From the NCBI GenBank assembly GCA_040954595.2, contig CM082583.2, forward strand, positions 8,120,849-8,184,848: DNA of 64,000 nucleotides, in the 5' to 3' direction. Position numbers and translations under genes: made by a program. The stretch comes from Balanoglossus misakiensis (taxonomy: Eukaryota > Animalia > Hemichordata). Below the pieces are notes generated by a model, which saw only the letters and a list, made by a program, of their open reading frames with translations, did not search any database and was not told where the DNA came from. Shown here in pieces: positions 28,689 to 57,427 of this stretch (the stretch's first letter is position 1; each line of letters begins with the position of its first letter).

Positions 28689-29631
28689 CTCTCTCTTCCA
28701 ATACCGAATCATCGATATGCGTGGACAGTCAATTATGTTAACTTAGTACATGTAGATACATGAACTTGTCGGCGCTCTGGGTAGGATGGACCATTTCAAT
28801 TTAGGGAGGCCGACAGGCGTTACCGAGCACATGATACCTGCATGTTACACAAGGTCATCGCCCCACCTCAAATGATGAAACGAATTTCATCTACCGCTGT
28901 GTATAAATGTGATAGAAAGTTTGGTTAAATGTGCAAAAAAGTTCAATGAGACAGGATACATTACTGCATCTCTGTTTAAAGGAATTTAAAATATCTGAAT
29001 TCAGACTCCAGTCTGGCGTCCTCTAATACTAATTTACATGGTGAAAGAATCAGACGTCATCTTGGATCTGTCGTCCCTGAACTTTGTTTGACAGAACGTT
29101 TGAAATGAGTGGGCACCTTCATCTTCATCATTCTCGTGTGTGACCTGCATTTTGGTGTTGTGTGATGATGCTGCCTTTTTTGTCAGCGCTGTTTGGTTGT
29201 TTTCCATGACGAATAATATGAGGTTAGTGCGAAAATACCGCAAAGTATGCACGAGGACATTAGCGCCGCGTATTATTGTTTGATAAAAAAAAACCTCCAG
29301 AAAGCTGGAGGTGGTGGTATGAACGATCAGTGTTCGCTTGATTCACCTTACATGGGTATTTGCATGTTCAAATGCATTCGGATACCTTTATTTTTCTATC
29401 CTGAGAGAAAATGTGGCTAAAAAATGAAGCACTGAAATTACATAATACATGTATTCAATTAACTACAACTAGGTCTACTGCAAAATCAATAAATGTGCGG
29501 TAGTGCTAAGCATAATCAATTTCCTGTACTTTTTTATCTGCACAAAGTGTTTCCTACTGCATCCTAGTTGTGATTTGTGCTGTCGTTTGGTTATAACTAA
29601 ACACTGTCTGTAGGATTCACCAATGATGAAT

Positions 29632-31843
29632 TCATGGGTACAAGTCCAAAGAGTCCCAGAAATCACACTTTTCTTCTAGGTAGTCGGTGTCGACCTGGTC
29701 ACGTGGTGTCATAAAGTGCATGAAACTCCAATCTGTTGAGTTTCCATACCGAGGCCAATGAACGGGTTCGTGTCGTTCGTTCATCGTGTTATTGGCCGCG
29801 CCTTCTTGGTGGGTGCCGCCGTTCGGATTACCGGCGTGCGCCAGGTTGGACCAGTAGTACACCATACTTCGCGACAGGACCTCTTCGGGAGGTGTGTACG
29901 GAAACCCTCCGAGAGGGGCGGTGTTGAAGAGAAACGCCAGTTCAGCTCCGTGACAGGAGTAATCTACGCAGTATTCGAAGAAAGGGCCCCACGCGTCGAA
30001 AGATAACTTATGGTCGAACAGATACGTCCAGACGTCGCCGTTGCCGTTGTGGTACTCGACAATGCCGCGGAGAGCGACTCTCTTCGGGCATTCGAATAAG
30101 AAGTGGTCGAGAGCTATAGATAACTGCTCGCGTTGGTCACTTCCTGGCGGATAGGGAGGGTATTCCGCGATAATTTCCAAAAAATCACCCGGGAAAAATG
30201 CAGCCATGAATGCGTAATAGTCAACGATCGTCATCGCTGTTTGGAACGCTCCAAAAACGCTAATACGCGCTTCGTCAGAATTTGTGCCGATTATGATCGG
30301 CATATCCCGAAATTCTCTGTTTTTAAAAGCGTCTAAGGACTGCTGCGTGACGTCATCCCCATCTACATAAGGCCCCCATGGTTCAAATATCTCAAACAGA
30401 TTGTGCGGATTAATGACAATCTGTCCTGAATATATCTGTGCCTCCAAGACATCCTCGGCCGACCGAGAGCGCATGCATTGAAGGTTGCCATGGGGACAAG
30501 CCAATGCCCCGGCAACATGGTTACCCAGGGCGACAGCTTCAACGGGACTTTTAAATGTTACTGAGAAAGGAAAACTTTCGATGATTGCCCGTTGAAACAG
30601 ACTTCTTCCGTGACTCGATGTTAGATGTATAGCAACGGACTGGGCGCCAGCACTTTGTCCAAACAAAGTTACCTATACAAGAGCGAAGATATAACATAAG
30701 CAATTAAAATGAATGCAAAACGTATAACCCGATCAAAGAGGGTGAACACTGACCTTTTGAGAAAGTGCTAGTATAAAGGGAAGTCTTTGAATGCCGTTTC
30801 ACCTCGTAGTATACCTACCAGGTTTGGATTGCCTCCAAAAGACGCAATGTTGTTCTGCACCCACTCCATTGCCAAACGCTGGTCCAGTATCCCATAGTTA
30901 CCGCGAGTCTCTCCTTCTCCATCTTCGGTCACCAAGAAACCAAACGCACCTGTCAACACGTGCATGCATTAATAATATTAGAACAGCCAAGAGGGTTTGA
31001 TGATCGTTTTCTATCATTAAGGTAACAAACAATCTTTTGGCCAATTTAAAACCTGTTTATCTTACTGGACATTATTTTCTCGATTTTTTTATTTTCTCGT
31101 TTTTTTCGCTAGCATTCACAAGGTATCCGCCAAAGTAGACCAGTGCATGATGTCCGCTTACGGTTACAAGTAAAACACGCTTATCCCCCAGTACCTACCA
31201 AGTCTGTAGTTGATAAATACCATCACCGTTTCCGTGTGATTAGCGTAGAACCTGCCGTCAGTCAAGTAAGAGTAGCCAGAACCCTGAATAAATCTTCCGC
31301 CGTGTATAAAAAGCATAACTGGAAAATTGGAACTGTTAGTGGCGGTCTTGGGCGTGAAGACGGTGAGATACAGACAATCTTCGCTCGCCTGGTGGGTTTT
31401 GAGAAATTGGGATATACATGTAATTAGAATTGCCAATGTCGTGCTTCGAGGAAACTTCGAAACGCAGACGTATACTCTTTTGTGAAAAAATGAGAAAGGG
31501 GGCAAAACAGTGAGAGAGAACACGTAACTTGATAACCTACCACTTGGGGACAAGTATATAACGGTTGTCGACAGTGTTGATAGCAACCAGGCGGGATTCT
31601 GTCGGCTGGGTAGACGTCGGGCCTCCAGCTGTCCAAGGGTATCGGAGCCCGCCATCGGTTTTCTCCGACGGGCGGCACGGCGTAAGGAATGCCGTAGAAG
31701 GCGTTCGACGATTCGAGGTGCACTCCCTCCACCATCCCGTTCCGTGTCTCCAACACTGGCCCAGTTTCACTCGCCGCCCAGGCATGGTCGATTGGGAGAC
31801 TCATGAAAAGCAGAAAGTAAATGGACACAACTGACGGATGCAT
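29632..31843 (-). CDS. Secreted type-B carboxylesterase/cholinesterase-like protein, copy 2 (4 exons)
   Basis: Exons 31541-31843, 31199-31388, 30819-30949, 29632-30672. Signal peptide [23 protein letters not shown]; [36 protein letters not shown] nucleophile, GTNSDE, CHGAEL; ends [12 protein letters not shown]. Confidence 0.92.
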
Positions 31844-32475
31844 CTTTCTCTTCCACTACGAAATCGCCAATATTCGCGGTCAACAAGTTCTGTTAATACT
31901 TATAGGCGATCTGAGTAAGGATGGACTATTTTCAATTTAGGGAGGTCGGACAGGGGTTATTGAACTCCTTGCCCGCATGTCTAGGCCTAAATTTTCAAAG
32001 TCACCCACCATCCGAGTGTTGTGTAAGACACTGGCTCCATGGGCCTTTATATCTGCAACACTTGCAAAGTAGTCATGACTCGGCAGGTCCGTGCGTGGGA
32101 CCCGCAGTTTTGCACAAAACATATTCAACGGTGCTGGTCGTGGACTTGAGATGGTCCCCTTCGAAATTTAGCCAGACTTGCCATAGGGCGGGTAGCCGCT
32201 ATATCTTTTCCCACTGTCACTCCGCAAGTAAACTTTCGTCCTTTTATACAAAGACCGAAAAGACGCAAACACGTGTCCCAGAGGGGAAAAACTAAATTTT
32301 ATTCATAGAAAAACATCTTTCCACATGTAATATAAATTTATACAGTAGCTCTATCGTGTAAATACATTTGAGAAGACTGCTGTCACGTACACCAAAAACT
32401 ACACTAATGCCGAACACCCGTTTGTTGCCCACTTCGGGCAACTCAGTTATGATTCGTAGCAGTTTCGAACAGAAA

Positions 32476-35353
32476 TCAAGGGTAGACATTTAGGGAATCC
32501 CAAAAATCACACTTTTCTATCAGGAAGTCCTTGTCGACCCGGTCACGTGGCGTCATGAAACGCATAAAGCTCCACTCTGTCGATTCTCGGTACTTTGGCC
32601 AATGGACAAAGTCATTTTGACCGATCGCCGCGTCTTCTTTCCAAGAATCGTCGTTTGGGTTGCCGGAGTGCGCCATGTTGGACCAGTAGTGCACCATACT
32701 TCGCGACAAGGTCTCCTCGTCGGGCGTCAGGTGAAATCCGCCGCCTGAGCGAGCGCTGTGGAACACGAAGGGGAGGTCGATTCCGTGACACGGGTGGCCG
32801 TCGCAAAATTGCCAGAGCGGGCCCCATCCGTTAAACGACGACGCTTGTTCGAACCTGTACATCCAGGCAACGCCGCCGCGTCCGTGTTCAGCGACACCGC
32901 GCATTGCCGCTCGCAGCGGGCACTCGAATACCAAATGATTGGCCAGAATGATGAGAGCTTCACGCTGGTCATATCCCGGTAGGGCGGGCGGGTATTCTTC
33001 GACCACTTCAAAGAAATTGTCAGGGAGAAAGGTGTATATAAACGAGAAATACTCGATGATCCTGGTTATTGGTTGGCGGAGTGCCATGAAAATGTTAATG
33101 CGAGTTTCATCTGACGTCGTCCCCATCATGATTGGCACCTTGCTAAAATGACCAGTCCTGAACGCGTCAATTGGTTGGAGCGTGACATCTATCCCGTCTA
33201 TGTGTGGTCCCCAAGTTTGAAACACCTGGAGCAAACTGTTAGGATTGACTACAGTTGCCCCGCAAGTCTTTTGCGCATTTAGCAGATCATCGGACGATTT
33301 CGAGCGCAAGCGGTTCATGTCGCCTTGACGACAGTCCAGTGCATCGGCGAAGCAGTCGCCGAGAGCGATGGCCTCGAAGTCTTCCTTGAATGGAACGCCA
33401 AAGGGTGCGCTCTGGAGAATTGCCCGGTGAAACAGATTCTTACTGCGCTTTGATGACAAATGTGCGGCAACCGATTGTGCACCGGCGCTCTGCCCGAATG
33501 CGGTTACCTAGACGGAAAAGAAACACACAACCTCTTGTAACAAATATTTAGTAAAGAACTGAAAAGCTCATATACTGCCACATATTGAGAACACGAACTT
33601 GTAAATTAGTAGTTGTACGGTATATATCATAAATGGATAGTAGTGGTGGTGGTGGTACTGTAGGCGGACAGTGGCCACTGCGAAACAAATTTTACTATCA
33701 CTACCTTATTTGGATTGCCTCCAAATGACGCAATGTTGGCCTGAACCCACTCCATTGCCAAACGCTGGTCTAGTATCCCATAGTTACCGGTGGCGTCTTC
33801 ACTCTTGTTTCCAGTCACCAGGAAACCAAATGCACCTAAGCAAGAAAACAGATATGAAGGAAATATGGTAAAGGGTCAGCTCAGAAAATAATACATGTAG
33901 GCCAGCCTATATTTGACGGCATCCATCTTGGTCACACACTGATGGAAAACATGGAAATTATATTGTAACCGCAAACCTCCCATGTCACGACACTCACCAA
34001 GCCTGTAGTTGGGGAGCACCATGACGACCTCCTGATGCTTGGCGTAGAAGGTGCCGTCTGTGAGAGGTGTGTACGCAGCTCCCTGCTCGAAGTTTCCTCC
34101 GTGTAAAAACAACATAACCGGGAGATTTGAACTGTTGGTGGCGCTTCCAGGCGTGAATACAGTGACGTACAAGCAGTCTTCACTCACCTAAAAATGATAA
34201 CGCAGTTTGCAGAGGATTCTTAATTTCAAGTTTTACATTTTTTTTAATATATAAAATTAACAATAAGGGCCACCACAAAATGGATTGGTCAATTTCAGCA
34301 CTGACTCTTCTCATCACGCAAGCCGATTTTTTTGGAAACGAGGTTTTAAAAATTAAGAACATGTACTAATACGTTCAGAAATCCTTACAAATTAACAAGT
34401 ACATGTACAGCAATAGTATGTACATTTGTATACGCATTCCCCGATCTGACAGCTTTCGGTAACTTGAAGTTGCCCGAGTCACTGTAACTCCATGCCCGAG
34501 TTAACAGTGACCATGCGAGGGTGACGTCGTGTGTGAGAGATATTTATCATGTAAAATTTCAAACAAGTTATGCACCGCAAATGAAATCTAGGCCCTATCC
34601 ATTGTTTTCAAAAATAATAGATATCCATTGTGTGCTTATAATGAATGGTCGATTCGCGTGACAACATGTTTAATCTAAACAGTGACGTTCGATTGCACTT
34701 GCTTTGTTTTACATATTATATCACAGGAAACTGAGAAATTGGACTGATTTTGGTGGTTGTTGTATAAAAAATTAAGAACTCCGCCAATTTCAAGTTCTGT
34801 CAATCACGTTTTGATGTTGAAAATATTAGTAAAAGAACAGTCATTATAAATTATAGATTTCCATTAAACTGGGGGAACGCATATCACAAAACGATTTAAA
34901 GGAAAAGGTACGATGGATTTGTTTGAGTTCGAACACGCCAATCAGTAAATATGAAACTTTCATAACTATGAAAGCGAGCCATCCGTCGCGTTGGTGACGG
35001 TGTTTTTTTCTGACTTTCACGAAAGCCAATTCTAAAATGTTAATACCAACCGTCTCCGGGCATGTGTGTGGAGGAAGAAAACAGTCCTGGAAACAACCTG
35101 GAGGAACTGTTTTAGCCTGGTAGACATTTGGCTTCCAACTGTTGGCAGGCATCGGCGGTTGCCACCGATTGTCGCCGACGGGTGGCTCGGCGTACGGAAT
35201 ACCGAAGAAGGCGTTGACTGAGCGCAGACGGATCCCCTCTACCGGTCCGTTGGTTGTTTCAACCACCGGGCCCGTTGCGCCTGATGTCCGGACGTAGCCG
35301 AGCAAAAAGAGCATAGCATAAAGGGTGGATTTTGATACCCCCGACAACGACAT
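32476..35353 (-). CDS. Secreted type-B carboxylesterase/cholinesterase-like protein, copy 3 (more divergent)
   Basis: Exons 35051-35353, 33998-34187, ~33705-33835, 32476-33507, same intron positions as copies 1-2. [41 protein letters not shown]. Start Met ([18 protein letters not shown]) is inferred. Confidence 0.9.
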
Positions 35354-35793
35354 TTTGGCGTATGGTCCGTCGTGTAGTGCTTTTGCTATGCTTTGTATAT
35401 GGGGCTTGGTTCCGCGGCCGAGATTTGTTAAAAGTATATGGTCAGACCATTTCATGACGGGGAGGTCACTACAAAATCAACGGCAACTTTGCTACAGCTG
35501 GATTGTCTTTACCACAAATACTCATGCTCTTTCCCTCTGTATCATCGAGGGGGTTAGATCGCACTGGTCACACTTGGTCGACTTTTTGGATTATCAGTCT
35601 ACGTGTCCAAATTTTGAAAGGTCGATTTATTGATGAGTTATTATAATGACAATTCAACGAGACACGAGAGTGATTTCAGGGTGCAGGATGTAGAACATGT
35701 CTTATTCACGTTTCAAACAAACATTTCACCATGTCTTGTGATTTGTTGAATATTGTATCATGTGATATGTCACATGATCAATATTCCCGATAG

Positions 35794-35864: not shown

Positions 35865-38800
35865 ATGGCGAGCAACTCTGATTTGGTTGTGCTGCAGAGA
35901 AGTGAAGATACGTCAGTTACAGTGCACTTGCATGGTAAGAAATTGTAGTATGGTCATTAATCGTCAGATTGTGGGCAAGTTCCGTCGGGACAACTACTGT
36001 ACGAGGAAACGCTGAACGGAACTTCGAAGTCATTCGACTGGTCGGGGGGTGTGCATCCTATAATAGTAAACAAGAAATTGGGAGGGTTGTGTGTAGATAT
36101 TGTGGGTTGCGTGATATGGCGTGTTATTTACGCTAGCTAAACGAAATTTCGACAAATGTCTGATGTGTTGTTTTAAACGCGATTTGCACGTAATCGTGCT
36201 CAGAAAAGAAGAGCTCTCTGATTGTGTACACGCCCCCGGGTGACCCCATGCATGACCTCGGGATTTTTCTCCCTAAGTGCAGGTGAAGTTTCATCCCAGT
36301 ACTACGGTTCGCGTGCAGTGCACAATTAAAATAAAGCAACCCTTTTGACATTTTTAAAACAGGATATATTATATGTTGCATATTTGGTAAAGTAAAGAAA
36401 CAAACCAATACATGACTCGCACCATCAAAAAGTTTCCAAGGACAAAACATAACTTGAGCAGGGCGATGTTTAATATATTATGTTGATGCCAATGACAGCA
36501 ATGATCAGTTACATGGTTCTGTTTTCTGTTTATGTTTTGTTGTTGCGTGTAACAGGAGCTACAGTGATATCATGGAAGTGTTGTGGAGAAGAAATGATCT
36601 TTGTCAGGTAAGGATAGGATAGGATAGGAGCATTCCAGCTAAAAATTATTCATCAAAAGCCTCTTTTTTTGAGTGCATTCTCTGTGACATTACAAGTGAT
36701 GTTTATTTTCTGCAGCAAACAGGCTGTGTACGACAACAAGAAGGCGATCAGAGGGGGAATTCCACTTGTCTTCCGTGAGTTACTAAAATTTCTGTCTCAT
36801 TTTCCTTCCTTTTGTCAAACATTTGTCAACTTTTCTCGTGGCCAATCAGACGCTGTGCCAAGGGGAAAATGTTCCTTGATTGGCTAAATGTTTGATAGAG
36901 TTCACAAAATTTCAGCAAACCATACAAGAATGTCAATTGAGCACATTATTAATGAAAATCGTTATCTTGTATTTTTCAGCGAATTTCGGTCCCTGGGATC
37001 TCGGTCCACAGCATGGTTTTGCTAGGATCTCTCGGTGGAATTTGAGTCAGGCTCCAGCAAAGGTAAGATTCCAGAAGAAGGATTCCACCATTTTACAGAT
37101 ATCAATCTACATGGATGTGCCACATTGTATTTTGAAATTATCATTGCTAGTCAAGAAATGCTGAAATCAGCCTGTTTGTAAGTTTTCTGTTAATGAACTG
37201 TTTTCACTGATGTCTTGTGTACTTCAACTCTAGGATAGCAGTGGTAATGTGTCTGCAGTGTTTACACTAGAAGATACAGAAGACACACGCAAAATGTGGA
37301 ATCACAAGTTAGTTTCTACATTTCCATTACTCCTGTTCATGGTCCTTATATATTTTTAAGCATCTTTTTATCTCTATACCTGTATGTACACATTCTTTTG
37401 TCTGACCAGTTATCGTGTTATATCATGGAGAAGTCGTGGGTGGAATTTTCACTTTCACTGTCAATCATTGCACTGTGGAAACAATAATAAAACAATTGCA
37501 ATTTACTTTTTTTCAGATTTAAACTCGCTTACACCCTGACACTGAAAAAATGTGAATTTCAAATGGACTTTGCTGTTGAAAATACAGGTTTGTGTCTTTT
37601 CGTTTTGTCACAGTGCTTGTACAGAATGCTCCAGCATATTAAGTTAATCATACAAAGATACTCTGTCAGTCAATTTTCTTTTTGATTAGTCTGTGTGGGT
37701 GTTAAAATCAAAATGGAACTCTTTCTGTACCGTGAAACATTTCAGCACCTGTGAAATTGTAGCCAGAAATAATGGGTTAACGCTCTCACTCTATGTTTGC
37801 GTTTGATTCAGGTTCTGATGACTTTGACTTCACATGCCTTCTCCACACGTACTTCCGTGTGTCAGATGTTGCCAAGACAACGGTGTCAGGACTGAAGGGA
37901 CTCCAATATTCTGATAAGGTACGGGTGGTCTTTTGCCATATACTAGCAAATTAAGTGATACCATGGCAACAGCGCCATGACTGAAGAGATACAGTACCAG
38001 TATTTTCACACATTTGACTGAAAAAAGTTTGTTGCATTTGGGCGAAACTGCCTTCCCTAAAATGTTTCAAGACACGCCACACTTATATTTTTCCTCTGAA
38101 CTGCAGGTTCGTGATGGACAGACATTCACAGAAGACAGAGAGCTTGTATCACTGGCTGAAAACTACGACAGGTAACTTGAACCGTGGGTTTACCCTCACC
38201 AACCGCCATCTTGTTTCAGTAGAGCATGATGGGATTGACACTTCTGAGCTATTCCCATTTCGCCCAATGCCAACTTGACAATATTGTGATTGTTTCCCTT
38301 GTATATGAATTTACGATTTCTGAATAATTTTATGGTTTTTGATTTGAAGAGAGAAAAAAAGGAAACTTTCCAATAGATTTAGATTATCCTATCCAGTGTT
38401 CTGAACCTTGTTTTTAACATTGATGTATTTCCGTTGGTTTGTACCAGGGTATATAATGGAACGCCGTCTGAGCATACGATAAGCAACGTTTCTGCTGGGC
38501 GGAGTATTCTACTGAAAAAATCCAACCTCCCTGAAACAGGTAAAACTATTGCATGTACATTGTACACTCTGATACACACATACACCAGCAACCACTGGGA
38601 CAGCATGTTGCTGCTTTGATAGTAAATGGTGATTCTGCTTGGACCCAGTCTCTACGTTGTTCTGAAAATCTTCTATATTTCATCGGCAACAAATATTAAT
38701 GCTTGGCTACAAAGTGAAAGAGCTTGTTAGGTTTTGTATGAAAACAATGATACCCAAAACTGTGTACGATTGAATGCCACAGGGCCGCTGCAGCAAGTGT

Positions 38801-39005
38801 TTTATGATATATTTTACATTCTCTGAATTTTGTCTTTGCAGTTGTGTGGAATCCATGGACCGAGAAAGCCAAAGCAATGTCCGACTTTGGAGACGATGAA
38901 TATCCCAACATGCTTTGCGTCGAGGCAGGCCATGTCGCCAAACGGTACAGCTTGTCAGGGGGTGCCAAGTTTGAGGCCTCACAGACTCTGATAATCAAGC
39001 AGTGA
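35865..39005 (+). CDS. Glucose-6-phosphate 1-epimerase (D-hexose-6-phosphate mutarotase, YeaD/YMR099C-like), 10 exons
   Basis: Spliced product MASNSDLVVL..VHLHGATVISWK..KAIRGGIPLVFPNFGPW..PQHGFAR..FTCLLHTYF..NYDRVY..VVWNPWTEKAKAMSDFGDDEYPNMLCVEAG..QTLIIKQ*; catalytic His/His/Glu motifs present; last exon 38842-39005. Confidence 0.93.
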
Positions 39006-39910
39006 CTTGCAAGACTCTAGAAGCAGGGTCACTCCGTAGAGTCAAACCATGGCCTTGTTCAGAAAACGTTCTTGGGTGTGATAACTTGCAGAGGAGCACA
39101 GTTATGAAGAACATCCTTGATGATAAAATTACCGGGTAATAGTTTGGGGAAATGTAATTTGCATAGTGGAATCTGGTGTCGTTTAATGCCTACTGGTAAT
39201 TAATTTGGAAGGAGATGTGGCTCAATTAATATATACCCGTACACGACAACTTTCGGTAGATCATATGTGATCCTGCACAGACAGTGATACTGCCACCAGT
39301 GGCCAAAGATTGCAATCGGACCTCAAATGGGGCCCAATCTGGCTAAGTGTTCAATTGACCCTGCGGTGGCGCACTTTTATTGCGCGTGCCAATCACTGAA
39401 AACCTGTGATTGGCTATATTTAAATTGTCGGTCACATGGTAGCAGGTGTTAAATGTGCAGAGGTGACGGCACATCTGTAATTATAACGTGGGGAGGGGCT
39501 TAATATGAAGCTTGTTTCTGTAATGTGGTAACACTATGCTAACTGCGGATCAAAGAATTCTGAGAGTGAGTAGCGTTCTGCATATTTGTTGCGTAGTTGC
39601 ATATATGTGACGTCACTGGCCATACCCCTACCACCGCCTATCACCAAAGCGAGAGGGCTTTACTAAAATGCGAAGCCACATTAATCGATCGAAAACAAAT
39701 CTAGACGTTGGGACATAAATTGAAGACATTTTCCCCTTTAGAAAGATTTATAAAAAGCTACTCACGAAACGGAGACCTTTGTAGCAGAGAACATAGAAAA
39801 AAAAACACAGCAATTCATCACAACTATTGCCTTTATTTTGTAGTTTTGCACCTAATTTTCAGTTTGGATATATGGCAAGTCCAGAACGAGTAACTAGTAA
39901 AAGCGTGCTA

Positions 39911-40849
39911 TTAGTCATAGTAGACATACGCATTGTAACACAGGTAGTCGTTGTTCTCTGTGAAGTAGCAGTACTCAAATAAGGTGTCGCGTGTCTGTAT
40001 GGCTGGCGGCGGTGGAAGAAAGCGGATATCCTCGGCGATGGTACTTGGGCATTCCTGCAATATAAAAAAGGGGGGCCTTTTCTGTGACGCAAATTGTAAT
40101 CGACTGTAACTAATATACATATTATCGTATTATCTTGACTTGGCGAGCAGGTAATTCCGACCAAGAAATGTTTATTAAAAAATTGCGTGCGTTTTTTGTA
40201 AAGGGAGGGGGAACAATGGCGTGCTCTAACTTACCGTGCCAATATCGCTGCACTCGAAGATACCATATCCGTTGCTGTAGAAATCACCAGTGCATAATCC
40301 ACACTGGTCTACTTCGTAACCAGTTAATGCGCCCTATATAAATTACATAAAATGCACATTCGGCTAGGGGCTACATTTACAAATCCAGATTAGCTCTATC
40401 TTTGGACACAGTGTTAACGTATTAACAATAAAAGTTTGAACGTGATAGCAAGAGTAATATCATGATCCTTAGCTTGAGGGATAGTGATGTCTGACCATAA
40501 TATCGATAACAAAAATAAAATAAAAAATAAATACCTGTTCAATATTTGTGTTGTTGTCCAATACGGGTTTCTGCACAGCGAAGAGTAGCACTGAGTCGGT
40601 ACCGTCGATGTACTCAGATGTAGTGAAATAGAGCGCCCCACTGCCCACGGGCTGGAGTTGTTTGGTTTCCTTGTAAGCTTGCTCGATGTCGGCGGGACAT
40701 TGCACGTTATAGGTGAGCCCTTTGTTACTAATCCCCGTTGAAAACGTCTTGGCATGGAACACGAAGCACGAGTTGGGAGTCGCTTTCAGGACGCCGCGCG
40801 CTGTTGCGCTGAACACCAAGAGCAGGCCAATCGACAGGAAAGATTTCAT
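39911..40849 (-). CDS. Uncharacterised secreted 185-aa, 8-Cys protein, copy A
   Basis: Exons 40535-40849 (105 aa), 40235-40333 (33 aa), 39911-40054 (47 aa + stop), all phase 0 GT-AG; signal peptide MKSFLSIGLLLVFSATARG; TATAAA on the minus strand at 40935-40940; paralog with identical structure next door. Confidence 0.88.
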
Positions 40850-41555
40850 CTCTTCTGCAGTGCGTGCAAATTTTTAACGTGTTGTTGCGGGAAAATCCTC
40901 AGCTCGATAAAACTTCGGGCGGTTTGTGGTCGGCTTTATAGCCCCTCTCAGTCCAAAACAGGTTAGCCTACAACAGAGACCTATAGCTACGATCGAATCA
41001 ATCATTTAAAAATTATTGTTCAAATTGTTTACAAAGTGGTTATGTTGATTTACTGCACCATCAATCTGTCTGATAATTCTCGAAACACGTGCTTCAAGTC
41101 TCATAGACGATGTAGACTGAGGTAACAAATCATCAGGTGAGATTCCAGAGGTCAATCTGACTTTATCAACCCCTAACAATAAACCACCTCAGGGTGTTCG
41201 CAGGCCAGAATCAAACGTGCACATACCGACACAAAAAAATCTTAGTAGTTCCATTTTTTTATTGGTATTTTAAAAATGTTTCCTGTTTTTTTTGTTTACT
41301 TTTTTATTTTATTTTTACTATTTGTTGTAATGATGTATGGTGTTTACCAGTCATTTCAGTTTTTCAGTTCTCTATAGGATAGCAAGCTTTATTCGACCAT
41401 TTGGGCAGTTTTACATTTGCAGACATTTTCCAGTTAAAATATGAACAAAACACGTATTGAAATTAATAAAAGTCGGCAGAGACGGTCTTGATCCCAGCGA
41501 CACACATCATCGCGAAACCATCTCCCTTTTTTCACATTTTTGCTTCATTTTACCA

Positions 41556-42403
41556 TTAAAAGTAGGTATACGCATTGTAGCACAGGTAGTCGTTGTTCTC
41601 TGTGAAGTAGCAGTACTCGAATAAGGAGTCGTGAGTCTGCACGGCTGGAGGCGGTGGAAGGAAACGGATTTCCTCGGCGATGGTGCTTGGGCATGCCTGC
41701 AACAAGGGGAGAAGGAGACCAAATAGTACTACATTTATGTGTGTGCGAGAGAGGGGGGTAGGGAGGGAGAGAGACAGGGAGAAGGGGGAGGAGAGAAAAC
41801 GATGACAGCTCTAACTTACCGTGCCAATATCGTTGCACTCGTAGATACCATATCCGTTGCCGTACCAATTACCAGTGCAAATTCCACACTGGTCTACTTT
41901 GTACCCAGTTGAATTGCCCTGTATAAACGACATAAAAGACTTACATTTACAAATCCAGATTAGCTTTATCTTGGGACACAGTGTTAACATTTTAACAATA
42001 AAACGTGACAGCAAGAGGAATATTGTGATCTGCATGAACGAGGGGTGGTGATGTCTGACCACAATACCGACAAGAAAAAAAATACCTGTTCAATATATGG
42101 GTTGTTGTCCAATGTTTCTGTGTACACGCTGAAGAGAAGCACCGAATTCGTGCCATCGATGTATTCAGATGTAGTGAAATAGAGCGACCCACTGCCCTGC
42201 GGCGGGAGTTCTTTGGTTTCCTTGTAAGCCTGCTCGATGTTTTCGGGACATTTTACGTCATAGGTGATACCCTTATTATTAACCCCCGTTGAAAACGACT
42301 TGGCATAGAATACGAAGCACGAGTTGGGAGTCGCTTTCAGGACGCCGCGCGCTGCTGCGCTGAAGACCAAGAGCAGGCCAATCGACAGGAAAGAGTTCAT
42401 CAT
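41556..42403 (-). CDS. Uncharacterised secreted 185-aa, 8-Cys protein, copy B
   Basis: Exons 42086-42403, 41820-41918, 41556-41696; about 79% identical to copy A by hand alignment, all 8 Cys conserved; TATAAA at ~42499-42504. Confidence 0.88.
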
Positions 42404-45400
42404 CGCTGCAGTGCGTGTTACTTGACGTGGGTGTACCGAAAAATCTTCAGGTCGATTTAACTTCGGACAGTAAAGGTCTGCCTTATTTAAAGACCAACTT
42501 TATAACCCCTCCCAGTGCAAAACAGATAACGACTAAGAAAGTCATTCAGGTCGAATGCATAATTTTAAGATTATCGATTACAAAGTGGTTATGTCAATTT
42601 ACGACGTAAGCAATTTGTCTGGTTTTTGTCGAAACACATGTTACAAGTCTCACAGACCGAGTAAACACTTTTACAGGTGACATCATGGCTACCCTATAAC
42701 TGCATTGTGATACATAGTTCCTAACATATGTCTCTAAGAATTCTTCTTTTCGTTAAAAAGCCCAGGGAAAGAAACTTTACTCAGTTAGGATAATCACAGC
42801 ATCATTTCAAGAACACCGGGAACGCATTAACAGACCATACGGACTCTATGTGCGTGTATTATTATGCGTCTTCAGACTAATACGAGGCCTTTATGCAAAA
42901 CAGTTAGGGCCTATAGAACACTAGTGGTAGTACTCCTTATACATTTAGTAAAATGAGATATTTAGCAAACGCGTTACTATGAAAATAATTAAACGATGAA
43001 AAAGTTGGGAGGACACACTGCCAAATGACATGTCATGAAAAGAGTAAAACATTTATTTGGATGGGAAAGGCAACAATATTCATTTAAAGGCACCATCGTT
43101 CCGTGAGGATTAACGGGCATTGTTGCCTCTCCGGGATTTGAAGGTGAGACGGTGGCGTAAGTTGTAATGGTAATCACCGGTAAAGTACACTAACTACAGA
43201 TAGGGGCACTGACAGTTGTTGCAAAGTTGACAGTCCGCAAACAAATTGGAGAGTTTTATGAGGACGTCATACTGGTATCGGCAAATTATTACACGTTCGT
43301 GATACACTTTGTCGGATTTATGACTGCAAGCGTGTGAATTTTTCCTCACCTTGTTCATAATTATCTTATCTTAAAACAGAAATGCCTGTGTTTAAAGTTC
43401 GGCTTGTACTACATATGGATGCTTTTGTGAACTAGTTCTCTGCAGAATTTTACTACGTGTTAGGGGGTCAAATTACATTATAATAATTGCATTCTGGGTA
43501 AAAGGTGGACAATCACTGTAGTATGAGTTTGAAGGAATGATGTTAACTGTATTTCATGGCTTCCTTTGTCAGATCAAACATTTCTGTCTTTGTAGTTAAT
43601 AAAGTCAGGTTCGATAGCACTCTATAGAGCTTTCGGGGACATGTGGTCTCCTTCTTGAGAGGCTATAATGGAATACACTGCAAACACCACGTAAGGCCCA
43701 TGCATGCTGTCACCATGGATCTGAAACGGCAAAGTCACAGATCCTTGAAGTTGTGCATTGATAACAAAAGCAACCAAAACACCAGCGCTCAGTTTTGTTA
43801 CTTAGTAAAACTTTACTTGAATTGTGTCAAATGGTGTCTTTCTTTGGACTAGATTTTGTAATGTTATACAGGTTCTACATTTCTATGTTGTAAGCTATTG
43901 GTTCACTACACAGGCCATTTTCATGACCCCTGAGGGACCTTACATCATGGCGTTATATTGGTATGAAATCGTACATCATTCAACATGGCACACAACATTC
44001 ACCCATTTGAAATAGACAAAAGTTTATACTCAAAATGGGGAAACTCATACCAACAAAATGCCAGGATGTAAAGGTCACATAGGGGTCACAAGTGTGACCT
44101 ACTTCAGATCAAAGCTGCTTGGCCACAGGCCAAGCATTGACATATCACTTCAAGAAATAAACGTCAGTATTTTGTCAAAGTATGATGTATGCATTACAAA
44201 AATGCTGGGGGTTAAAGATAAACTCAGACCCGTTCTCTCTAGGGTCTATGCACAAACTCGATATTCTTTATAGTTTCGTTCTAGTTTCCATCTTTAGAAG
44301 TTCAAATCTGGGGAGGGTGGAGCAGATGACAAATTTCTGTGCTCTCACTGGCAAATGTAGTGTCCACCATTGTTAGGGCGGACCACTGGAAAACTCAATT
44401 TAACATCAGATCGAAAAAGCTAGGTAGAGCAACGAAATACAAAAGTGTATCAAGTTTAAGAAGTAAGGTTTACTATAAAGTCTGAGTACGCACCATACAA
44501 CAAGATCTAACAGAGAGCCTCTATAAAAGAAATTACAAGTTTTATTTTATGATTGCAATTTTTGAAATGAACATAATTTTGACCAAGCTTTCACCTACAA
44601 TTACGACCTTCACAAGCATTTGCACCCTACTACAAAAGAGCCTGGTTGTTAGCACGACAACCAGTTTAACATTTACTGCAAGAGCTGTTCCTGTTGGAGA
44701 CACTCCCAGGATCTTAAATTCACCAAGCAAGTTGTTGAATAGTAGCGACGGTTTTTCGCCGGCTGGAAATTGTAAATATGTTACACTCACAGTGCACATT
44801 CCCATGGTTGGTACTTATCCTTAATTAAAAAAATCAACTTGTACTGCCTGAATGATTTCTACATATGGAAGTTGTCTTTTTTCATATAAGCATGCAGTTC
44901 GGGGTAAAACGGGGTTTTAAACACTTTTGGAAGGACATGTAACAACCATAGGATTTTGCACACTGTCTAACAAATATTTTCATCAGAAGAAAAAAAAAAT
45001 GCCACTTTAAAAGTCCCTAGAAGTTCACATGAGGGTTTACCTGTTAAATTAACATACTGTTTTCACTTTCCCATTTTGGGTCAAATTGAGTTTCAATGAA
45101 GTGAGATAGCACCATTGAGTCATCTCTGGTCTAGGCAGCTCACTTTAACATGGGCTGTACAATATGTTACATAAGTATAAAAAAAATTCCTATTACTACC
45201 CTAAAATGCAACGGAATTATTGAGCTTTCTGTCAAATCATGAATCTTTTGATATTAATACATAGTTGCTTTTGTAATAAATACACACTTGATTACAAATT
45301 TCTCAAAGTACCCAGACTTGAAGGAGTTTTCTCATTGGCCCCAGTTTCGCTCCCCCCCCCCCCTTTGGAAAACATTTTGTGTTTTTGCAGTGGCCTCATT

Positions 45401-46048
45401 TGAGTTGCTAAAGACTGCAGATTACCCTTGGCTCCAAACATGACTCTAGTTAAACAAGTCAGCTTAGCACACTACAAGTAAGTTTCCTGGGGGTTTCAAA
45501 CAGGATGAGCGTGTGAGTGTGTGTGTGTGTGTGAGCTAGCCAGAAATATATGCAAGTTTTCTTCCGCTCCCTGCACATTGCTGCATCCGGAGAAATAAGG
45601 CCAAAGGTCACAAAGAGAGGCAACTTGTCCCCGAAGACCTCGAAAGAGTATTTTGAACACACATAAATATTACCACTACAGAGTTTTTCCTCAAAACAGG
45701 GCTTCTACATTGCAGATACAAAGAACTTTTTTCTCTCTTTTGTAAATTTTCATATTCATAGGTTTAAGAACAGAATCAGTTAAATATCTTATTGTATAAA
45801 ATCAAAATATGAGAGGGTGGAACAAACTGCTGCTACCTAGAAGTACGTATGTCCTCGCAGAGAACAACATATACTGTATTTCATTTTAAACACACCAAAA
45901 AAAATCCATTTCTGAAAATTGAATGTTCAGTCTATACATTATACTGTACATTAAATGCAGGCAAAGCTGGGATAGGCTTATTCATTTGACATTTTTTTTA
46001 TAATCATGAGATTACAAATGTGTGTCTCAGCAAGCCGACGATCTCTTT

Positions 46049-49000
46049 TCATTCGATGTACTCCCATAGGTCCCTATCGTAGCCTTCATGTACGTGTTCT
46101 AGTAATACTTTACGTCTGCTTTCACAATACCTGGAAAGATTTGAAAAATGAAAAATAAGTGTCATTGAAATTAACGGCTATAACAGATCACAGAATCTGA
46201 CATTAAATATTTCACACGACACTTTCCAAACATTTTTAAATTCTCCGACTCTCTTACCTATATTTGTCTTGCACTTTCTGTTTGATATCTACTAGTGAAT
46301 CCTGGGTAATATCTCTTTCTAAATACTCCGACAAGGTTTCTGTTGCATTTTCAAGGTCTTTCTGATTTTCCTACATGGGGGGAAAACACAAACAAGCGAA
46401 ATCAATTCCAGGTCAACCACGCACACAAGTCTGAGAGATACCGATCCAAATTGGTCTTGAAAGACATCTATGAACTTGTATTTACCTCAAATATAATCGA
46501 CTGGTTATTCTTCCGTAGATAATACGCAAATACATAGGTATACATGAGCGTCTGTCGGCAGAGACAGAGGACGTCCACCGCTTTCTTCAAGAACTGAACT
46601 TCAATCCACGACATGTTGTGGTGTTGCATCTCCTCCATCTTGGCCCGGATCTGAGCGTACAGTTTGTTCTCAAACCGCAGACTTTGCATATGGTTCATGT
46701 AGCGATTGCAATAGAATAAGTAACGTTGAAGAGCTGCTCGTGATTTCTGCGAGGGGGAAGAAAAACGCGATAATTAATCTGTGCCTAACAGCCTCTTTTG
46801 ATATCATGAAAATTTCTTTCCGCGAACATTTCCCGTTATACAGTATTCACTCCTTTAATGACAGTCAATTAAAAAAAAAATACACAATGCAAAGAGAGCA
46901 CTAGTCTATACACATCTACATTTAACAATAAACCCACAGAATTTCTGGGGGGGACAACTTACACTCACCTCCTGGGCGTCTCTGGCCTTCTTCGCTTCAT
47001 CCTCGTTGTAGCGGTTACAATTGTACCAAGACGAACCGTGGGGTTCCCAAGGGCCCAGACACACCCAACAGAAGTCAGCCTGCAAGGTATAATAATATCC
47101 ATGAATGAGCAGAATTCAACAAGTGCTTTTATTTCTTACCCGTTGTACATACATCACGTTCGGTGTGGTGTCTATCTTGACATGAAATCCACAGATACAT
47201 TTTCAGGCCATACAAGGGACTCGTTCTCACCTTACAATTCTGGTTCCTGCACACCATATGGTTGCATCCACCATCTTTTTCTATTGTAACATGGCACTTA
47301 GGGCATTCTTTTGTGTTAGCAGCGATCCAGTTTGAGGTCTCACTGTCATCGTCACATTTCTTTATCCACTTCCTCAACCACTGCAAGCAAAACACAAGAT
47401 AATACATTACTGTCTGGATATGTCTTTTCTCAGTGCTCATAAAGTATTGGATATTAACAATATTTGGCACGCACACACACACACCTGTCATCTGCCGATA
47501 ACCCAGAGTTAATTCTAGATTGCATTAGATGTTTGTGACATACCTTGCATTTGACTGGATCGTGCCAATTCTCTGAGCAATTGAAACTGGAGAGTCAAAC
47601 CAAACAGAGCAAATTATCAGTACAGCACGGCTTTGTCAATTTAATTCTCCATATCACATTTGTATAACGCTTGAAAAAAAGTCAGCCATCAACCCTTCAA
47701 ATAGTTTATAATTCTACCGACTACTTCTATAAACACCCTGTGAACATGTGCATGATACCACAGTCTACTGACATACTGAAATTATCTTTATGATATCTCC
47801 CATATCAGCAACATGTGTGTAGATATCAAACATGGTAAAAAGTGCAACTAAGATGCCTATGTTGAGGTGTACAATGTAGGACCCTGTGGAGATTATTACT
47901 CACCAGTACGTGTGTCCACATAAACAGACGACCGGCTTTGCATCCACGTAGCTAACTTTGATAGCGTTGGGACAGTCTGGCGCGGGGCACCATTTCATTA
48001 ACCGATTACACACTACAAAGCTATTGGTGATAATGTGTTGATACTTTAACTTTACCCTAGGGTCTTTCACTAGTTTCCTGTGGAAAAGAAGTAGTGACAC
48101 GTGAACGGTCAGTTAGAAAGGTCACAGATTTGTCTGAAGGGAAATGGATTAACTTCTTGGGTGTTTCAATAGAGAACAGTTTTTGTCAAACATGAACACA
48201 GGACAACCACCAGCAAACGCAAGAACCTAATCCTAAGTATGTTCGTTTCATCTCTCAATCGATACTTACATGACAGTAGCGTCATCTACTAAGATATCAC
48301 AAGCATGGGCTGCACAAGATATTGTCTGAAAAACAAAGCACAATGCAGTAGTTTGAGAAACAGCTGACTCCAACAACCTTCAGTAGCAACACACGAGATA
48401 ACTGCAGACTAAATGACATGAAGCACCATTCCAATGATTGGAATTTATGACTCACCCAGTGGGGAAAAAAATGTTGCAAGAACAGATACTGGAATTTTTG
48501 TAGGATGATCAGCCAATGAAGCTGAGACTCTCACTAAAGTTTTACAGCAAGTTTCTATTCAAGCTCTCGGCAAGGTGTTGATACAAGAAGGAAGACCTTT
48601 GGAATGTTAAGTGTAATGTGACACTCCTGGTCCATGCGTGTATGTATTGAGTTATAAACTTGACGAGGGTGATTTACACTAATTAATAATAATACTAACC
48701 TGCCCCATGCCTTCTTCCATAATTTTTGTAGTTAAATACTCTGTCCAACATTCTACACAAAATTTATGACCACATTCTAGGCCTGTTAAATGCTGCAAGG
48801 CAAAAGATTAACGTATTAACAAAAGTCCATCAGCTCACTTGTCAATTACGCATATACATTCTAAGATGCATTGAAATACCCCCCATCAAGGTTCTAAGTT
48901 TCTTCCAAGTTTTTCTCCTGTCTACCAGAGATGGCGCTCTTCTGCACGGAACTCATCCCAATGGCCAAGCAGATGTACAAATGTTTCAAGCAAAAAGTTA

Positions 49001-50254
49001 ATCTGTTTACTTACTGCCAGGGCAATTGTATTGAGACAAATTTCACATATAACATCACTACTAGCTAATGCAGAAGATGATCTAGTATTCACATGTGTCT
49101 GCAAGAGAGGAAAGAAATAGTAAGTTGGATTTATTTTTGTCATTTAGCAGCAAAGTGAAGCATACCTTAGTATTCATTAGGAACACGTTTCAATAGGCAC
49201 AAATGGATGTAAAGAGATTTTGATAAAGAACATTGTGCCCATTTCTAAAGCTTACCCTAGGTTTCACTGATCTATGAGGATTCACAACGTGCGCCTCCTC
49301 AAATAACTTTTCTTGGTCTTCCCCGTAGTACCGTTCCATGAGTTTTTCTTTGTCCCATTTGAAATGGTTCAGTAAAATTCTTGTAATGGTGGCAGGAATC
49401 TGAAAGGTGAAATGGATGTCAGCAGATATCCACAGTAAACATGTGAATGACATCATTTCAAGGGGAACTGGTCCCCCCCCCCTTCTTTGACAAATTGCTA
49501 GGGAGTGCCAACATGCCAACAGGGGGTGAATCTCCCCATGATCCCCCAATCTAGATGAAACACTGGTCACTGATGACACAGTGTTTTTCTGTTCATTCGA
49601 TTTCACACTTTTGGGTCGCAATTATTCGGATAAGTGGCGGAAGTGACGATGGAAATATTTTCACCTGCATATTATCATGGGGATTTAGCATTGACCTGAC
49701 CCACTAAAGTAACAGCTTCACACCTTCCCACTGGACGTGCCCTTTCCATTTCACTGAAACACATTTGCAGTTATAGTGCTCATCATCACTCGACATGCTG
49801 GCTATTTGTGGCCAATGCACGGTAGTTTGATTCTCGCCTGATTGGAGACAGTCGGCGGGTAAACTGCGAAAATTCCAAGTATTTGATTCATACTGAACAA
49901 AACACGGTTATATGCACATAGGTGGCCGCCATCTTGGATTTTTTCCCCAAGTGTCAACCTCTGTTTTCGACTGCCCAACATCGGGTCAAGACACCGATCT
50001 CGCACAAATGACAAAGTTTATACCTCAACGACGGCATTAACTTCTTTAATGCAATCCACCATGTGTTGGACAATCTTATCCGGCGTTAAAACTTCGAACG
50101 GGAATTCATCCTCTTGGTCATGTCTATCGTGATGCTCTGACGTCTCTGCTTCACCGATTCCTAATCCAATATCAAAGTGATCCTCTTCAACGTCACTTGA
50201 TTCAGGCTCGGCATCCTCCTCGTCATCATACATGAAATCCTCATCCGAGTCCAT
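46049..50254 (-). CDS. ARIH1: Ariadne-1 RBR E3 ubiquitin ligase, 12 exons
   Basis: Acidic N-terminus MDSDEDFMY; UBA-like [17 protein letters not shown]; RING1 [13 protein letters not shown]; [11 protein letters not shown]; RING2 [22 protein letters not shown] with catalytic Cys; Ariadne domain ending RDLWEYIE*. Confidence 0.97.
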
Positions 50255-51285: not shown

Positions 51286-53049
51286 TTACTCTTCTATAAG
51301 TATTTTGGACATTGTTTGAAAGGATCGTCCGGCGTAGGATCGTCTGTCCATCGACCTCTCTCTGCTGGCTACAGGTATTGAACACAATAAGGTAGATAAT
51401 TTGTCTGTGCTAATGTGACCGCCAGTCTCAAGATTTCTGTATATTGCCTGAAAAAAAAAAAAAATGTTTTTACAGTTTCTCATTGACACAGGTATTTACA
51501 CAATTTTAGGTGATTAATTTCATTCTTTAGTCTCTACGTGATACACAAAATACCAAACATACGGTAAGAGTGATTTCAATGAAAACGTGTATAATTTCTG
51601 TAGAAGCAAAATTTTGAGGACTCCACTGAAAGTGGGAAATTTCAAAACTTACTTCAAATTCTGTCGACAATGCAGCGTCATTCTTGGTATCTTCTCTGAC
51701 TTGGTCAAGCTGTAATAATAATAACAAACAAAAATATGGAATTCATACACAAAACACTTCAAATTGCATCGACGTAAGACTGTGCAGTATTAATGTTTCT
51801 CCACAAATCAATTTTGGTATGTATATAAACCCTTTCAACAAATGACAAATATCACACACACAAATCAAAATGGAAAACATCAGGGTATCCTTACAGATTC
51901 TTCACAGATTTGACTTTTCCTCACAAACGACGGGACATCTCTCTCATATATCTGTTGTAAATGCAGGAAGGTTTCTTGAAATCTTTGCAGCATACTCAGT
52001 GAGATTACCTGTGGGAATGCAATGCAGAATAGCGCATGTTGACTGAATTCGATGGAAAATATGGCACCAGGATAGTAGAGAGAGTTACCAACTTCAATTG
52101 TCAATAGTTTAGGATGGACGTTATATTTCTGAAGGTGAGCTACATTTAGATAACAGCAGACAAATCTGTTTACATTTCAGTGCCATGGGGATATATTTGT
52201 AAAGTGCCAAGACCATACCTGTATACTCCGACAAATTTTATTGTCCATTCTTCTTATCAATGATAATACTGATAAAGCTTTCATGGGATCATTCTGTACA
52301 AAAAAAGAGAATGAAAATAATGAAATATACTATGTATATGACTGCTCTTGCAGCCAGCCATCACACATGAAAACCAATACAGCAAGTGAAAAAAGCCCAA
52401 TCCTTGCTCCACTCACCTGATTATTTGCTAGAGCTGACACTAAACAATAGGCATTCCTCGATAATGTCACTTGTTTGATCTTATGTTCCTCCAGAACTGC
52501 TTGAGCCAGTTCATATGATGCTGTCGTGTTCTGTGGAAGAAGGTGGAATTGGGAAGAAATGGAAAATCAGAATCAGTAGATGTATTACATGTACTTTGAA
52601 TTTCCAAGTTAGAACTGAGAATATTTTGCACCATGACATGCTCAGATCACAGGGAAGAAAGCCTCACCAATTTATAACAGGCAGCAAGTGCCACTGTGTA
52701 AGAATCAGCTATCTTCTTCACTCCTTGAAATCCCATTTCATCATACACTTCTAAAACTCCTGAAATTAATCACAAATGTGCCAACACATGTATATTGATT
52801 ACTGTGTACAGTTCCCATGTTGTATAGATTTTTTGCATATACCTATATTTTTGGAGTTTTGAAGAATGATAGATCATGAGAAAAATGTTCCATGCTTACC
52901 ATTGTAATCTCCAGCTTCAAATAAAATATCCATGGCAAGATTGTAAGATGTTGGATCAAAAAACAGACCCTGAAGTTCCTGTGTGGAAAAAAACAGAAGC
53001 TTGGTAAGGTACTTTTCCACAACAGACATTTCCATGGAGATGGAACTTG

Positions 53050-53112
<63 letters not shown>

Positions 53113-53113
53113 T

Positions 53114-53145
<32 letters not shown>

Positions 53146-54092
53146 TAAAATTATTACAATGATGTACTCACTTTGCACTTAACTACATCCAATATCTTGT
53201 CATACACTTTGACACTGTTGAACATTCTCATCACTAGAGGTCCAAACCGGAACTTGTCAAATGATGCATTTTGGTGCTGTTTGTGATACCTGCAAAAAAC
53301 CAACACTTTATGCTAAAATATGATGCTCACAAAGTTAGAAGATCATGTGTGGATAATGTAGTAAAATCTTACTGCATGATAGAGATAGATCTATGTCATT
53401 AATTAAAGAACTTGAAAGTCCATAGAAATAGAAAAGTTGGTGCACACTGACAAACCTTTTGAGAACTTTCATGGCCAAGTCTGTGTGTTTCTCAGAGTAA
53501 CACGTGTGTAATATCATCTTGACTTCTTCTGTAAAGATTATATCTTCTTTGTCAGCTTTGCCTGCTATTGCATTCCTCAATGTCTCTGAAAAAGTACATG
53601 TTTAATATGTGAGGAAAGTATGTAAAGTGCAGTATTATTGAAAGGCTGGGGAAGAGGTTACCAATCGCAACGGCTCCTCAGTACTTACCTGCATCACCAA
53701 ATAATCTGTCTTCTGTTCTCATCTTCTCCTTTTCAAAATCATCGTATCTTGTGACATGTGGTGCTAACAAATGTCGTACACCTGAAATCGAGAAATGGGT
53801 GACAAATAGGTTCATAGTACCATGGACGTAAATGATAGTACATACGACAGTTTATACGTCCAAACTCTGACGAAGAGTAGGGTTGCTTCTGTGCACCCCC
53901 CCCCCCTCGACGACCACCCCAGGCACCAATGCACCACAGCAGTTGATATTAAGATCTTTCGTACATCTCATAAAATTGGACCTCAAAAACGTATGAAGAC
54001 TCACTCTTAATGTTTGGATTATACACCAAACGAGTACTAGTCTTCAATGATTGCACGAGTGATCGGGACACAGGTACCACGAACGCCGCCAT
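51286..54092 (-). CDS. PTCD2: Pentatricopeptide repeat domain-containing protein 2 (mitochondrial)
   Basis: Presequence-like MAAFVVPVSRSLVQSLKTSTR; RYHKQHQNASFDKFRFGPLVMRM; ELQGLFFDPTSYNLAMDILF; ends GHISTDKLSTLLCSIP..RSFQTMSKILIEE*, colinear with human PTCD2 as recalled; head-to-head with MRPS27. Confidence 0.88.
53050..53144. repeat. (CAT)n microsatellite in a PTCD2 intron
   Basis: About 31 CAT units with one TAT interruption, between the minus-strand donor at 53170 and acceptor at ~52979. Confidence 0.95.
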
Positions 54093-57300: not shown

Positions 57301-57427
57301 CCGGGAGAGGGAAATATGGAAGTTGATGATCGGCACCCCCGGTGAGCCTCTGCCCCCACCACCAACACTGACAGAGGAGGATAAGAGGATAATTGCCAAG
57401 CAAGAAAAATATATTTATGAAGATTAG
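54323..57427 (+). CDS. MRPS27: Mitochondrial ribosomal protein S27 (mS27, PPR protein)
   Basis: MAAHMCRRAAS presequence; [73 protein letters not shown]; last exon ends EKYIYED*; AATAAA at ~57653. Confidence 0.92.

What the first reader, a model, noticed from the sequence alone, without database searches (positions are those of the whole stretch)
39911..42680. Tandem pair of orphan secreted 8-cysteine proteins
Seen: two intact 3-exon genes, 185 aa each, with signal peptide, TATA box and 8 invariant Cys. They share the motifs GSGxLYFTTSEYIDGT, VDQCGxCTG, NGYGIxEC, CPSTIAExIRFLPPPP and LFEYCYFTENNDYLCYNAY, and are ~79% identical with mostly conservative changes and a variable patch near residues 91-102. 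Upstream DNA is also duplicated (~40990-41120 versus ~42550-42680). I do not recognise the family. Inference: an aromatic-rich, probably beta-rich disulfide-bonded secreted effector (lectin/ligand-binding, defence, toxin or mucus protein), likely tissue-specific given the TATA promoter.
Basis: partly seen in the sequence, partly recalled or inferred. Interest (0 to 1): 0.7.

Follow-up and report, generated by a model that had tools for sequence, protein, structure and literature searches.

The report
Acorn-worm secreted pair, unmatched beta fold

Summary
Two minus-strand, three-exon genes (GT-AG, phase-0 introns) each give 185 aa with 8 Cys, 145/184 identical, dN/dS 0.49. They are not strict orphans: 14 'uncharacterized' RefSeq proteins of Ptychodera flava (about five genes, four contigs) align end to end at 38-46% and keep all 8 Cys. 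That confirms the gene models independently of RNA. No other organism, Pfam, NCBIfam or PDB sequence matched. An AlphaFold2 model of a P. flava relative (pLDDT 73.5, pTM 0.72) has eight strands in four hairpins with three short helices. Its best Z against 48,161 solved chains is 4.3, with only weak barrel look-alikes. Best reading (0.4): a disulfide-stapled, acidic, secreted beta protein that likely binds a small ligand in a Tyr/Thr/Ser/Lys-lined site. Ligand and tissue are untested. The 'variable patch' is not significant (p about 0.25), and nothing points to gene transfer. Real, undescribed, moderately interesting.

The parts
40535..40849 (-). Gene A exon 1 (residues 1-105): predicted signal peptide and first half of the domain, Cys28, Cys51
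   Evidence: profile of exon 1 of A and B finds the P. flava relatives
40334..40534 (-). Gene A intron 1, 201 nt, phase 0; 85% identical to intron 1 of B over 166 aligned columns
40235..40333 (-). Gene A exon 2 (residues 106-138): CxxC and Cys133, predicted third hairpin
40055..40234 (-). Gene A intron 2, 180 nt, phase 0
39911..40054 (-). Gene A exon 3 (residues 139-185 and stop): Cys140-Pro, RF-x-PP, YCY-x-TE, last hairpin; most constrained exon (dN/dS 0.25)
40935..40940 (-). TATA box of gene A, 86 nt before the ATG
   Evidence: same context in gene B
41024..41117 (.). Duplicated upstream block of gene A, 76% identical to 42573-42666
39832..39837 (-). Candidate polyadenylation signal of gene A
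   Evidence: use not tested
42086..42403 (-). Gene B exon 1 (Met-Met start)
41919..42085 (-). Gene B intron 1, 167 nt, phase 0
41820..41918 (-). Gene B exon 2
41697..41819 (-). Gene B intron 2, 123 nt, phase 0
41556..41696 (-). Gene B exon 3 and stop
42499..42504 (-). TATA box of gene B, 96 nt before the first ATG
42573..42666 (.). Duplicated upstream block of gene B
41388..41393 (-). Candidate polyadenylation signal of gene B
   Evidence: use not tested

Best explanation
The two genes are a tandem duplicate of an acorn-worm gene family whose products are predicted to be secreted, acidic, 18.5-kDa proteins that likely fold into a disulfide-stapled eight-stranded beta barrel or curved sheet and likely work as soluble binders of a small ligand in extracellular fluid or mucus. 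Shown: intact gene pair, full-length relatives in P. flava, 8 invariant Cys, constraint on the protein. Predicted: four beta hairpins joined by short helices. Inferred from spacing only: disulfides 28-51, 116-140, 119-133, 167-177, each closing a hairpin. Inferred from strand alternation only: K34, N42, T46, Y74, S/T78, S86, Y166, Y168 and T170 line one polar and aromatic site. The ligand (small aromatic, sugar or lipid) is a guess.
Confidence: 0.4

Rival explanations
1. A secreted lectin or innate-immune recognition protein that binds microbial glycans on a surface site, with paralogues widening specificity.
For: Aromatic and hydroxyl-rich conserved residues; repeated duplication in two species; exon 2 has 12 nonsynonymous and 2 synonymous differences, ratio 1.6.
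Against: The exon-2 excess is not significant (p 0.73); variable sites of A/B and of the P. flava paralogues do not overlap beyond chance (13 shared, p 0.21); only two copies in the window; no lectin family by sequence.
Confidence: 0.2
2. A structural or matrix protein of mucus, burrow lining or egg coat that works by disulfide-stabilised packing or metal bridging and has no specific small ligand.
For: Acidic (pI 4.2-4.3), one N-glycosylation sequon per copy; lineage-restricted secreted proteins often serve such roles (general knowledge).
Against: No low-complexity or Ser/Thr/Pro mucin tract beyond five prolines; compact predicted globular fold; even number of invariant Cys leaves none free in A or B.
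Confidence: 0.15
3. A secreted enzyme, for example a barrel-type cyclase or a component of the bromophenol or light chemistry of acorn worms.
Confidence: 0.1
4. A signalling protein, pheromone, protease inhibitor or defensive toxin that acts by binding a protein target.
For: Size and disulfides fit; some P. flava relatives carry a 30-residue N-terminal extension ending in Arg-Arg that looks like a propeptide.
Against: A and B lack that extension; no similarity to a toxin or inhibitor family above chance (Bowman-Birk E 0.068 on a 33-residue exon, below cut-off); no amphipathic or basic patch seen.
Confidence: 0.15

Closest known systems
Uncharacterized Ptychodera flava proteins XP_070553276, XP_070557262-3, XP_070557801-8, XP_070581566-7, XP_070539569-70
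   Same: Colinear over the whole mature domain, 38-46% identical, all 8 Cys kept, acidic.
   Different: About 30 extra N-terminal residues after the signal peptide; XP_070553276 has three more Cys in the core region; none has a name, Pfam domain or paper.
Calycin-type barrels (avidin/streptavidin, lipocalins)
   Different: No sequence similarity; helices predicted after strands 2, 4 and 6; the N-terminal GxW motif of these families (recalled) is absent; Z far below family level.
CYTH / triphosphate tunnel fold
   Different: Covers only model residues 36-172; the ExExK metal motif (recalled) is absent; those proteins are intracellular and not disulfide-bonded.
ML domain (NPC2, GM2 activator, MD-2)
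   Same: Secreted, about 150-170 residues, 6-8 Cys, C-terminal strand pair; my first lead, recalled.
   Different: No Pfam hit at E up to 10, no PDB sequence hit with the family profile; predicted helices between hairpins do not fit the sandwich as recalled.

Membership tests
Unnamed P. flava family (XP_070557263 and kin) | Significant full-length sequence similarity | tested here: met
   blastp E 1e-29 to 1e-45 at database size 1e9, residues 14-184; hmmsearch E 2.9e-15 and 6.0e-14 from exon 1
Unnamed P. flava family (XP_070557263 and kin) | Eight-Cys framework with spacing 22-64-2-13-(6/8)-26-(9/12) | tested here: met
   8 of 8 Cys invariant in 7 of 7 aligned sequences
Avidin / streptavidin | Sequence profile of the family | tested here: not met
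   No Pfam hit; no PDB sequence hit
Avidin / streptavidin | Eight-stranded up-down barrel | tested here: inconclusive
Avidin / streptavidin | Biotin binding | not testable with these tools
   needs a binding assay
Lipocalin | Sequence profile, GxW motif in strand A (recalled) | tested here: not met
   No Pfam hit; A has no Trp at all
Lipocalin | Barrel with C-terminal helix | tested here: inconclusive
ML domain (NPC2/GM2A/MD-2) | Pfam profile match | tested here: not met
   0 families for P0004, P0005, P0008 at E up to 10; 0 for exons 1 and 3
ML domain (NPC2/GM2A/MD-2) | Ig-like beta sandwich with lipid cavity | tested here: inconclusive
   fold searches cannot exclude a family
CYTH / triphosphate tunnel metalloenzyme | ExExK motif in the first strand (recalled) | tested here: not met
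   alignment shows no such motif in any member
CYTH / triphosphate tunnel metalloenzyme | Tunnel fold | tested here: inconclusive

The most novel reading that the evidence does not exclude
An undescribed fold, a two-fold repeat of hairpin-CP-helix-hairpin closed into a disulfide-stapled barrel, that acorn worms evolved independently of lipocalins and avidins and use to carry their brominated aromatics (the polybrominated quinones of the P. flava light system, PMC4208949) or riboflavin in secreted mucus. The new-fold part alone I put near 0.3; the link to brominated ligands has no direct evidence.
Probability: 0.08. Interest if true: 0.75.

Novelty: new variant of a known kind. Interest (0 to 1): 0.38.

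Why it matters

Tried and rejected
Word-index searches with exon 1 (5 candidates, none E<=1) and exon 3 (9 candidates, none E<=10) found nothing; the index-free profile search did. Two of its four rows, P0006 (TPR repeats) and P0007 (repeat protein), were dropped as repeat-driven. Pfam, NCBIfam, PHROGs: nothing above chance. PDB sequences: best E 0.19 and 0.42 for 4e9k. Atlas: window sequence not readable; P0005 best 0.81, P0004 no usable hit. Exon-1 model gave no fold match. Foldseek on the full model: 0 hits at E<=0.001 in PDB and BFVD. No ML-domain protein stood among the 50 rows shown; that does not exclude it. Metagenome scans: 279 and 136 pattern matches, none a relative. Phages: no match. 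One cyanobacterial locus (L001) is a 2H-phosphodiesterase sharing an 8-residue seed; hhalign probability 14%: chance. Internal two-fold repeat: hhalign sets the Cys, CP and Y-x-T in register but 6 of 200 column shuffles and 30 of 200 block shuffles reach the score, and 0 of 9 pairwise half-against-half tests pass (best 90 of 1000): suggestive only. Variable patch and shared variable sites: not significant. Rfam: one sub-threshold hit. Sequencing runs: no RNA holder listed. Homodimer prediction: no verdict. No genome held for the window, so copy number outside it and synteny are unknown. Papers: (listings only) showed nothing on this family; five accessions gave 0 papers. Supplements of hemichordate genome or single-cell papers were not opened and might list these genes.

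Full report
Observation. The window is animal DNA of about 41% GC. Pfam names its neighbours as three carboxylesterases, SAXO, EFL1, an ARIH1-type ligase, a TPR protein and an aldose-1-epimerase-family gene. Between the epimerase gene and the ARIH1-type gene lie two minus-strand genes. A: 40849-40535, 40333-40235, 40054-39911. B: 42403-42086, 41918-41820, 41696-41556. Each splices to 558 nt and 185 aa with GT-AG, phase-0 introns and Cys at 28, 51, 116, 119, 133, 140, 167, 177. Identity is 145 of 184. Both have a hydrophobic N-terminus, a TATAAA 86 or 96 nt before the ATG, a downstream AATAAA, pI 4.2-4.3, about 18.5 kDa mature mass and one N-glycosylation sequon. The duplication covers coding exons, introns and about 270 nt upstream but not the 3' flank. 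No third copy is in the window; the rest of the genome is not held.

Selection. Nei-Gojobori counts give dN 0.125, dS 0.257, ratio 0.49, with a nonsynonymous deficit at p 0.007. Exon 3 is most constrained (0.25). Exon 2 has ratio 1.6 on 12 versus 2 changes, not significant (p 0.73). Against a clean reading, intron 1 is 85% identical over 166 columns, more than synonymous sites (78%), so either it is constrained or partly converted, and dS is uncertain; Rfam finds nothing there.

Relatives. Word-index searches with single exons failed. A profile of exon 1 from A and B against 1.84 billion representatives gave 4 rows. Two are repeat-driven artefacts and were dropped. Two are 229-aa uncharacterized proteins of Ptychodera flava, an enteropneust hemichordate. 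A family profile then returned 3 of 2,049 candidates, all P. flava, the third standing for 11 members. In all that is 14 RefSeq proteins on four contigs, which I read as about five genes from accession runs and contig lengths. They align with exons 2 and 3 as well, although only exon 1 was used to find them (blastp E 1e-29 to 1e-45). This is independent support for the splice models. Seven sequences were aligned (A, B, and 5 of the 14): core identity of A or B to them is 38-46%, and 37 of 165 positions are invariant, including all 8 Cys. In the tree A and B group together (92/90), four P. flava proteins group together (100/99) and P0004 is a long branch, so each species expanded its own copies (long-branch warning noted). 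No relative appeared in other animals, prokaryote genomes, metagenomes or phages. These searches are limited: one used exon 1 only, the others need shared words. Earlier scan notes call this genome a likely acorn worm; my homologues agree, but I did not place the neighbours taxonomically.

Possible internal repeat. The two halves each read hairpin, Cys-Pro, helix, hairpin, and intron 1 falls at their junction. P0004 has C-x2-C-x13-C-x5-CP in its first half and C-x2-C-x14-C-x5-CP in its second. That register suggests the disulfides 28-51, 116-140, 119-133 and 167-177. Statistically the repeat is weak: 6 of 200 column shuffles and 30 of 200 block shuffles reach the hhalign score, and none of 9 pairwise tests passes. 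It stays a lead.

How it likely works. Shown: intact, constrained genes in a family found so far only in acorn worms. Predicted: secretion and a compact disulfide-held beta fold. Inferred: invariant or near-invariant polar and aromatic residues fall on the same parity within predicted strands 1-4 and 7 (K34; N42, T46; Y74, T/A76, S/T78; S86; Y166, Y168, T170). If those faces meet, they make a hydroxyl-rich, tyrosine-lined site of the sort that binds a small polar aromatic or a sugar. I could not check this on coordinates. I commit to a soluble ligand-binding protein of extracellular secretion at 0.4, ahead of a lectin-like immune binder (0.2), a matrix protein (0.15), a protein-targeting signal, inhibitor or toxin (0.15) and an enzyme (0.1).

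Comparison with known systems. It may work like a lipocalin or avidin, but it fails their sequence tests and the fold test is inconclusive. The ML-domain idea, recalled from the Cys pattern, got no support. The CYTH match lacks the metal motif as recalled. It is a member only of the unnamed P. flava family.

Literature. Five searches by topic (listings and abstract starts only) and one by five accessions (0 papers) showed no description of the family. Of PMC11175523 I saw 12 passages, none on it. Of PMC4208949 I saw one passage and two references: a polybrominated benzoquinone and riboflavin act in the P. flava light system. Of PMC8944799 I saw two reference titles, one calling balanoglossid luciferase a peroxidase. 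Subscription papers and supplements were not seen.

Verdict. A real, undescribed, apparently acorn-worm-restricted family of predicted secreted eight-cysteine beta proteins whose model has no clear structural match. Function is inferred only. Interest 0.38; new variant of a known kind.

Noticed in passing
window 26526-35476 (-): Tandem array of at least three carboxylesterase-family genes (large last exons at 26526-27557, 29635-30672, 32479-33507; N-terminal exons near 28287-28742, 31427-31855, 34847-35476); the exon near 28287-28708 appears to shift frame, so one copy may be broken.
   Followed up: partly
window 40372-40433 and 41942-42003: A 62-nt stretch of intron 1 is 94% identical between the copies, better kept than synonymous sites; no Rfam match. 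Possible regulatory element or gene-conversion tract.
   Followed up: partly
window 35869-39124 (+): Multi-exon aldose-1-epimerase-family gene (likely glucose-6-phosphate 1-epimerase) converging on gene A; Pfam PF01263 on the exon at 38808-39005. A useful synteny anchor.
   Followed up: partly
window 46000-49621 (-), 14926-15975 (-), 20656-25226 (+), 59260-63496 (-): ARIH1-type RBR ligase, SAXO, EFL1 and a TPR protein (TTC37/SKI3-like by recall): ordinary conserved neighbours.
   Followed up: partly
window 57053-57424 (+): 124-aa open frame with protein-like composition and no Pfam hit; possibly a transposon or exon fragment.
   Followed up: no
P0009-P0019 (P. flava): One P. flava gene of the family is annotated with eight isoforms that differ at the N-terminus, some apparently lacking most of the signal peptide; several relatives carry a Cys-containing extension ending in Arg-Arg that A and B lack.
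   Followed up: no
window 52846-53178: Long ATG/CAT trinucleotide microsatellite that reads as a poly-Met frame.
   Followed up: no
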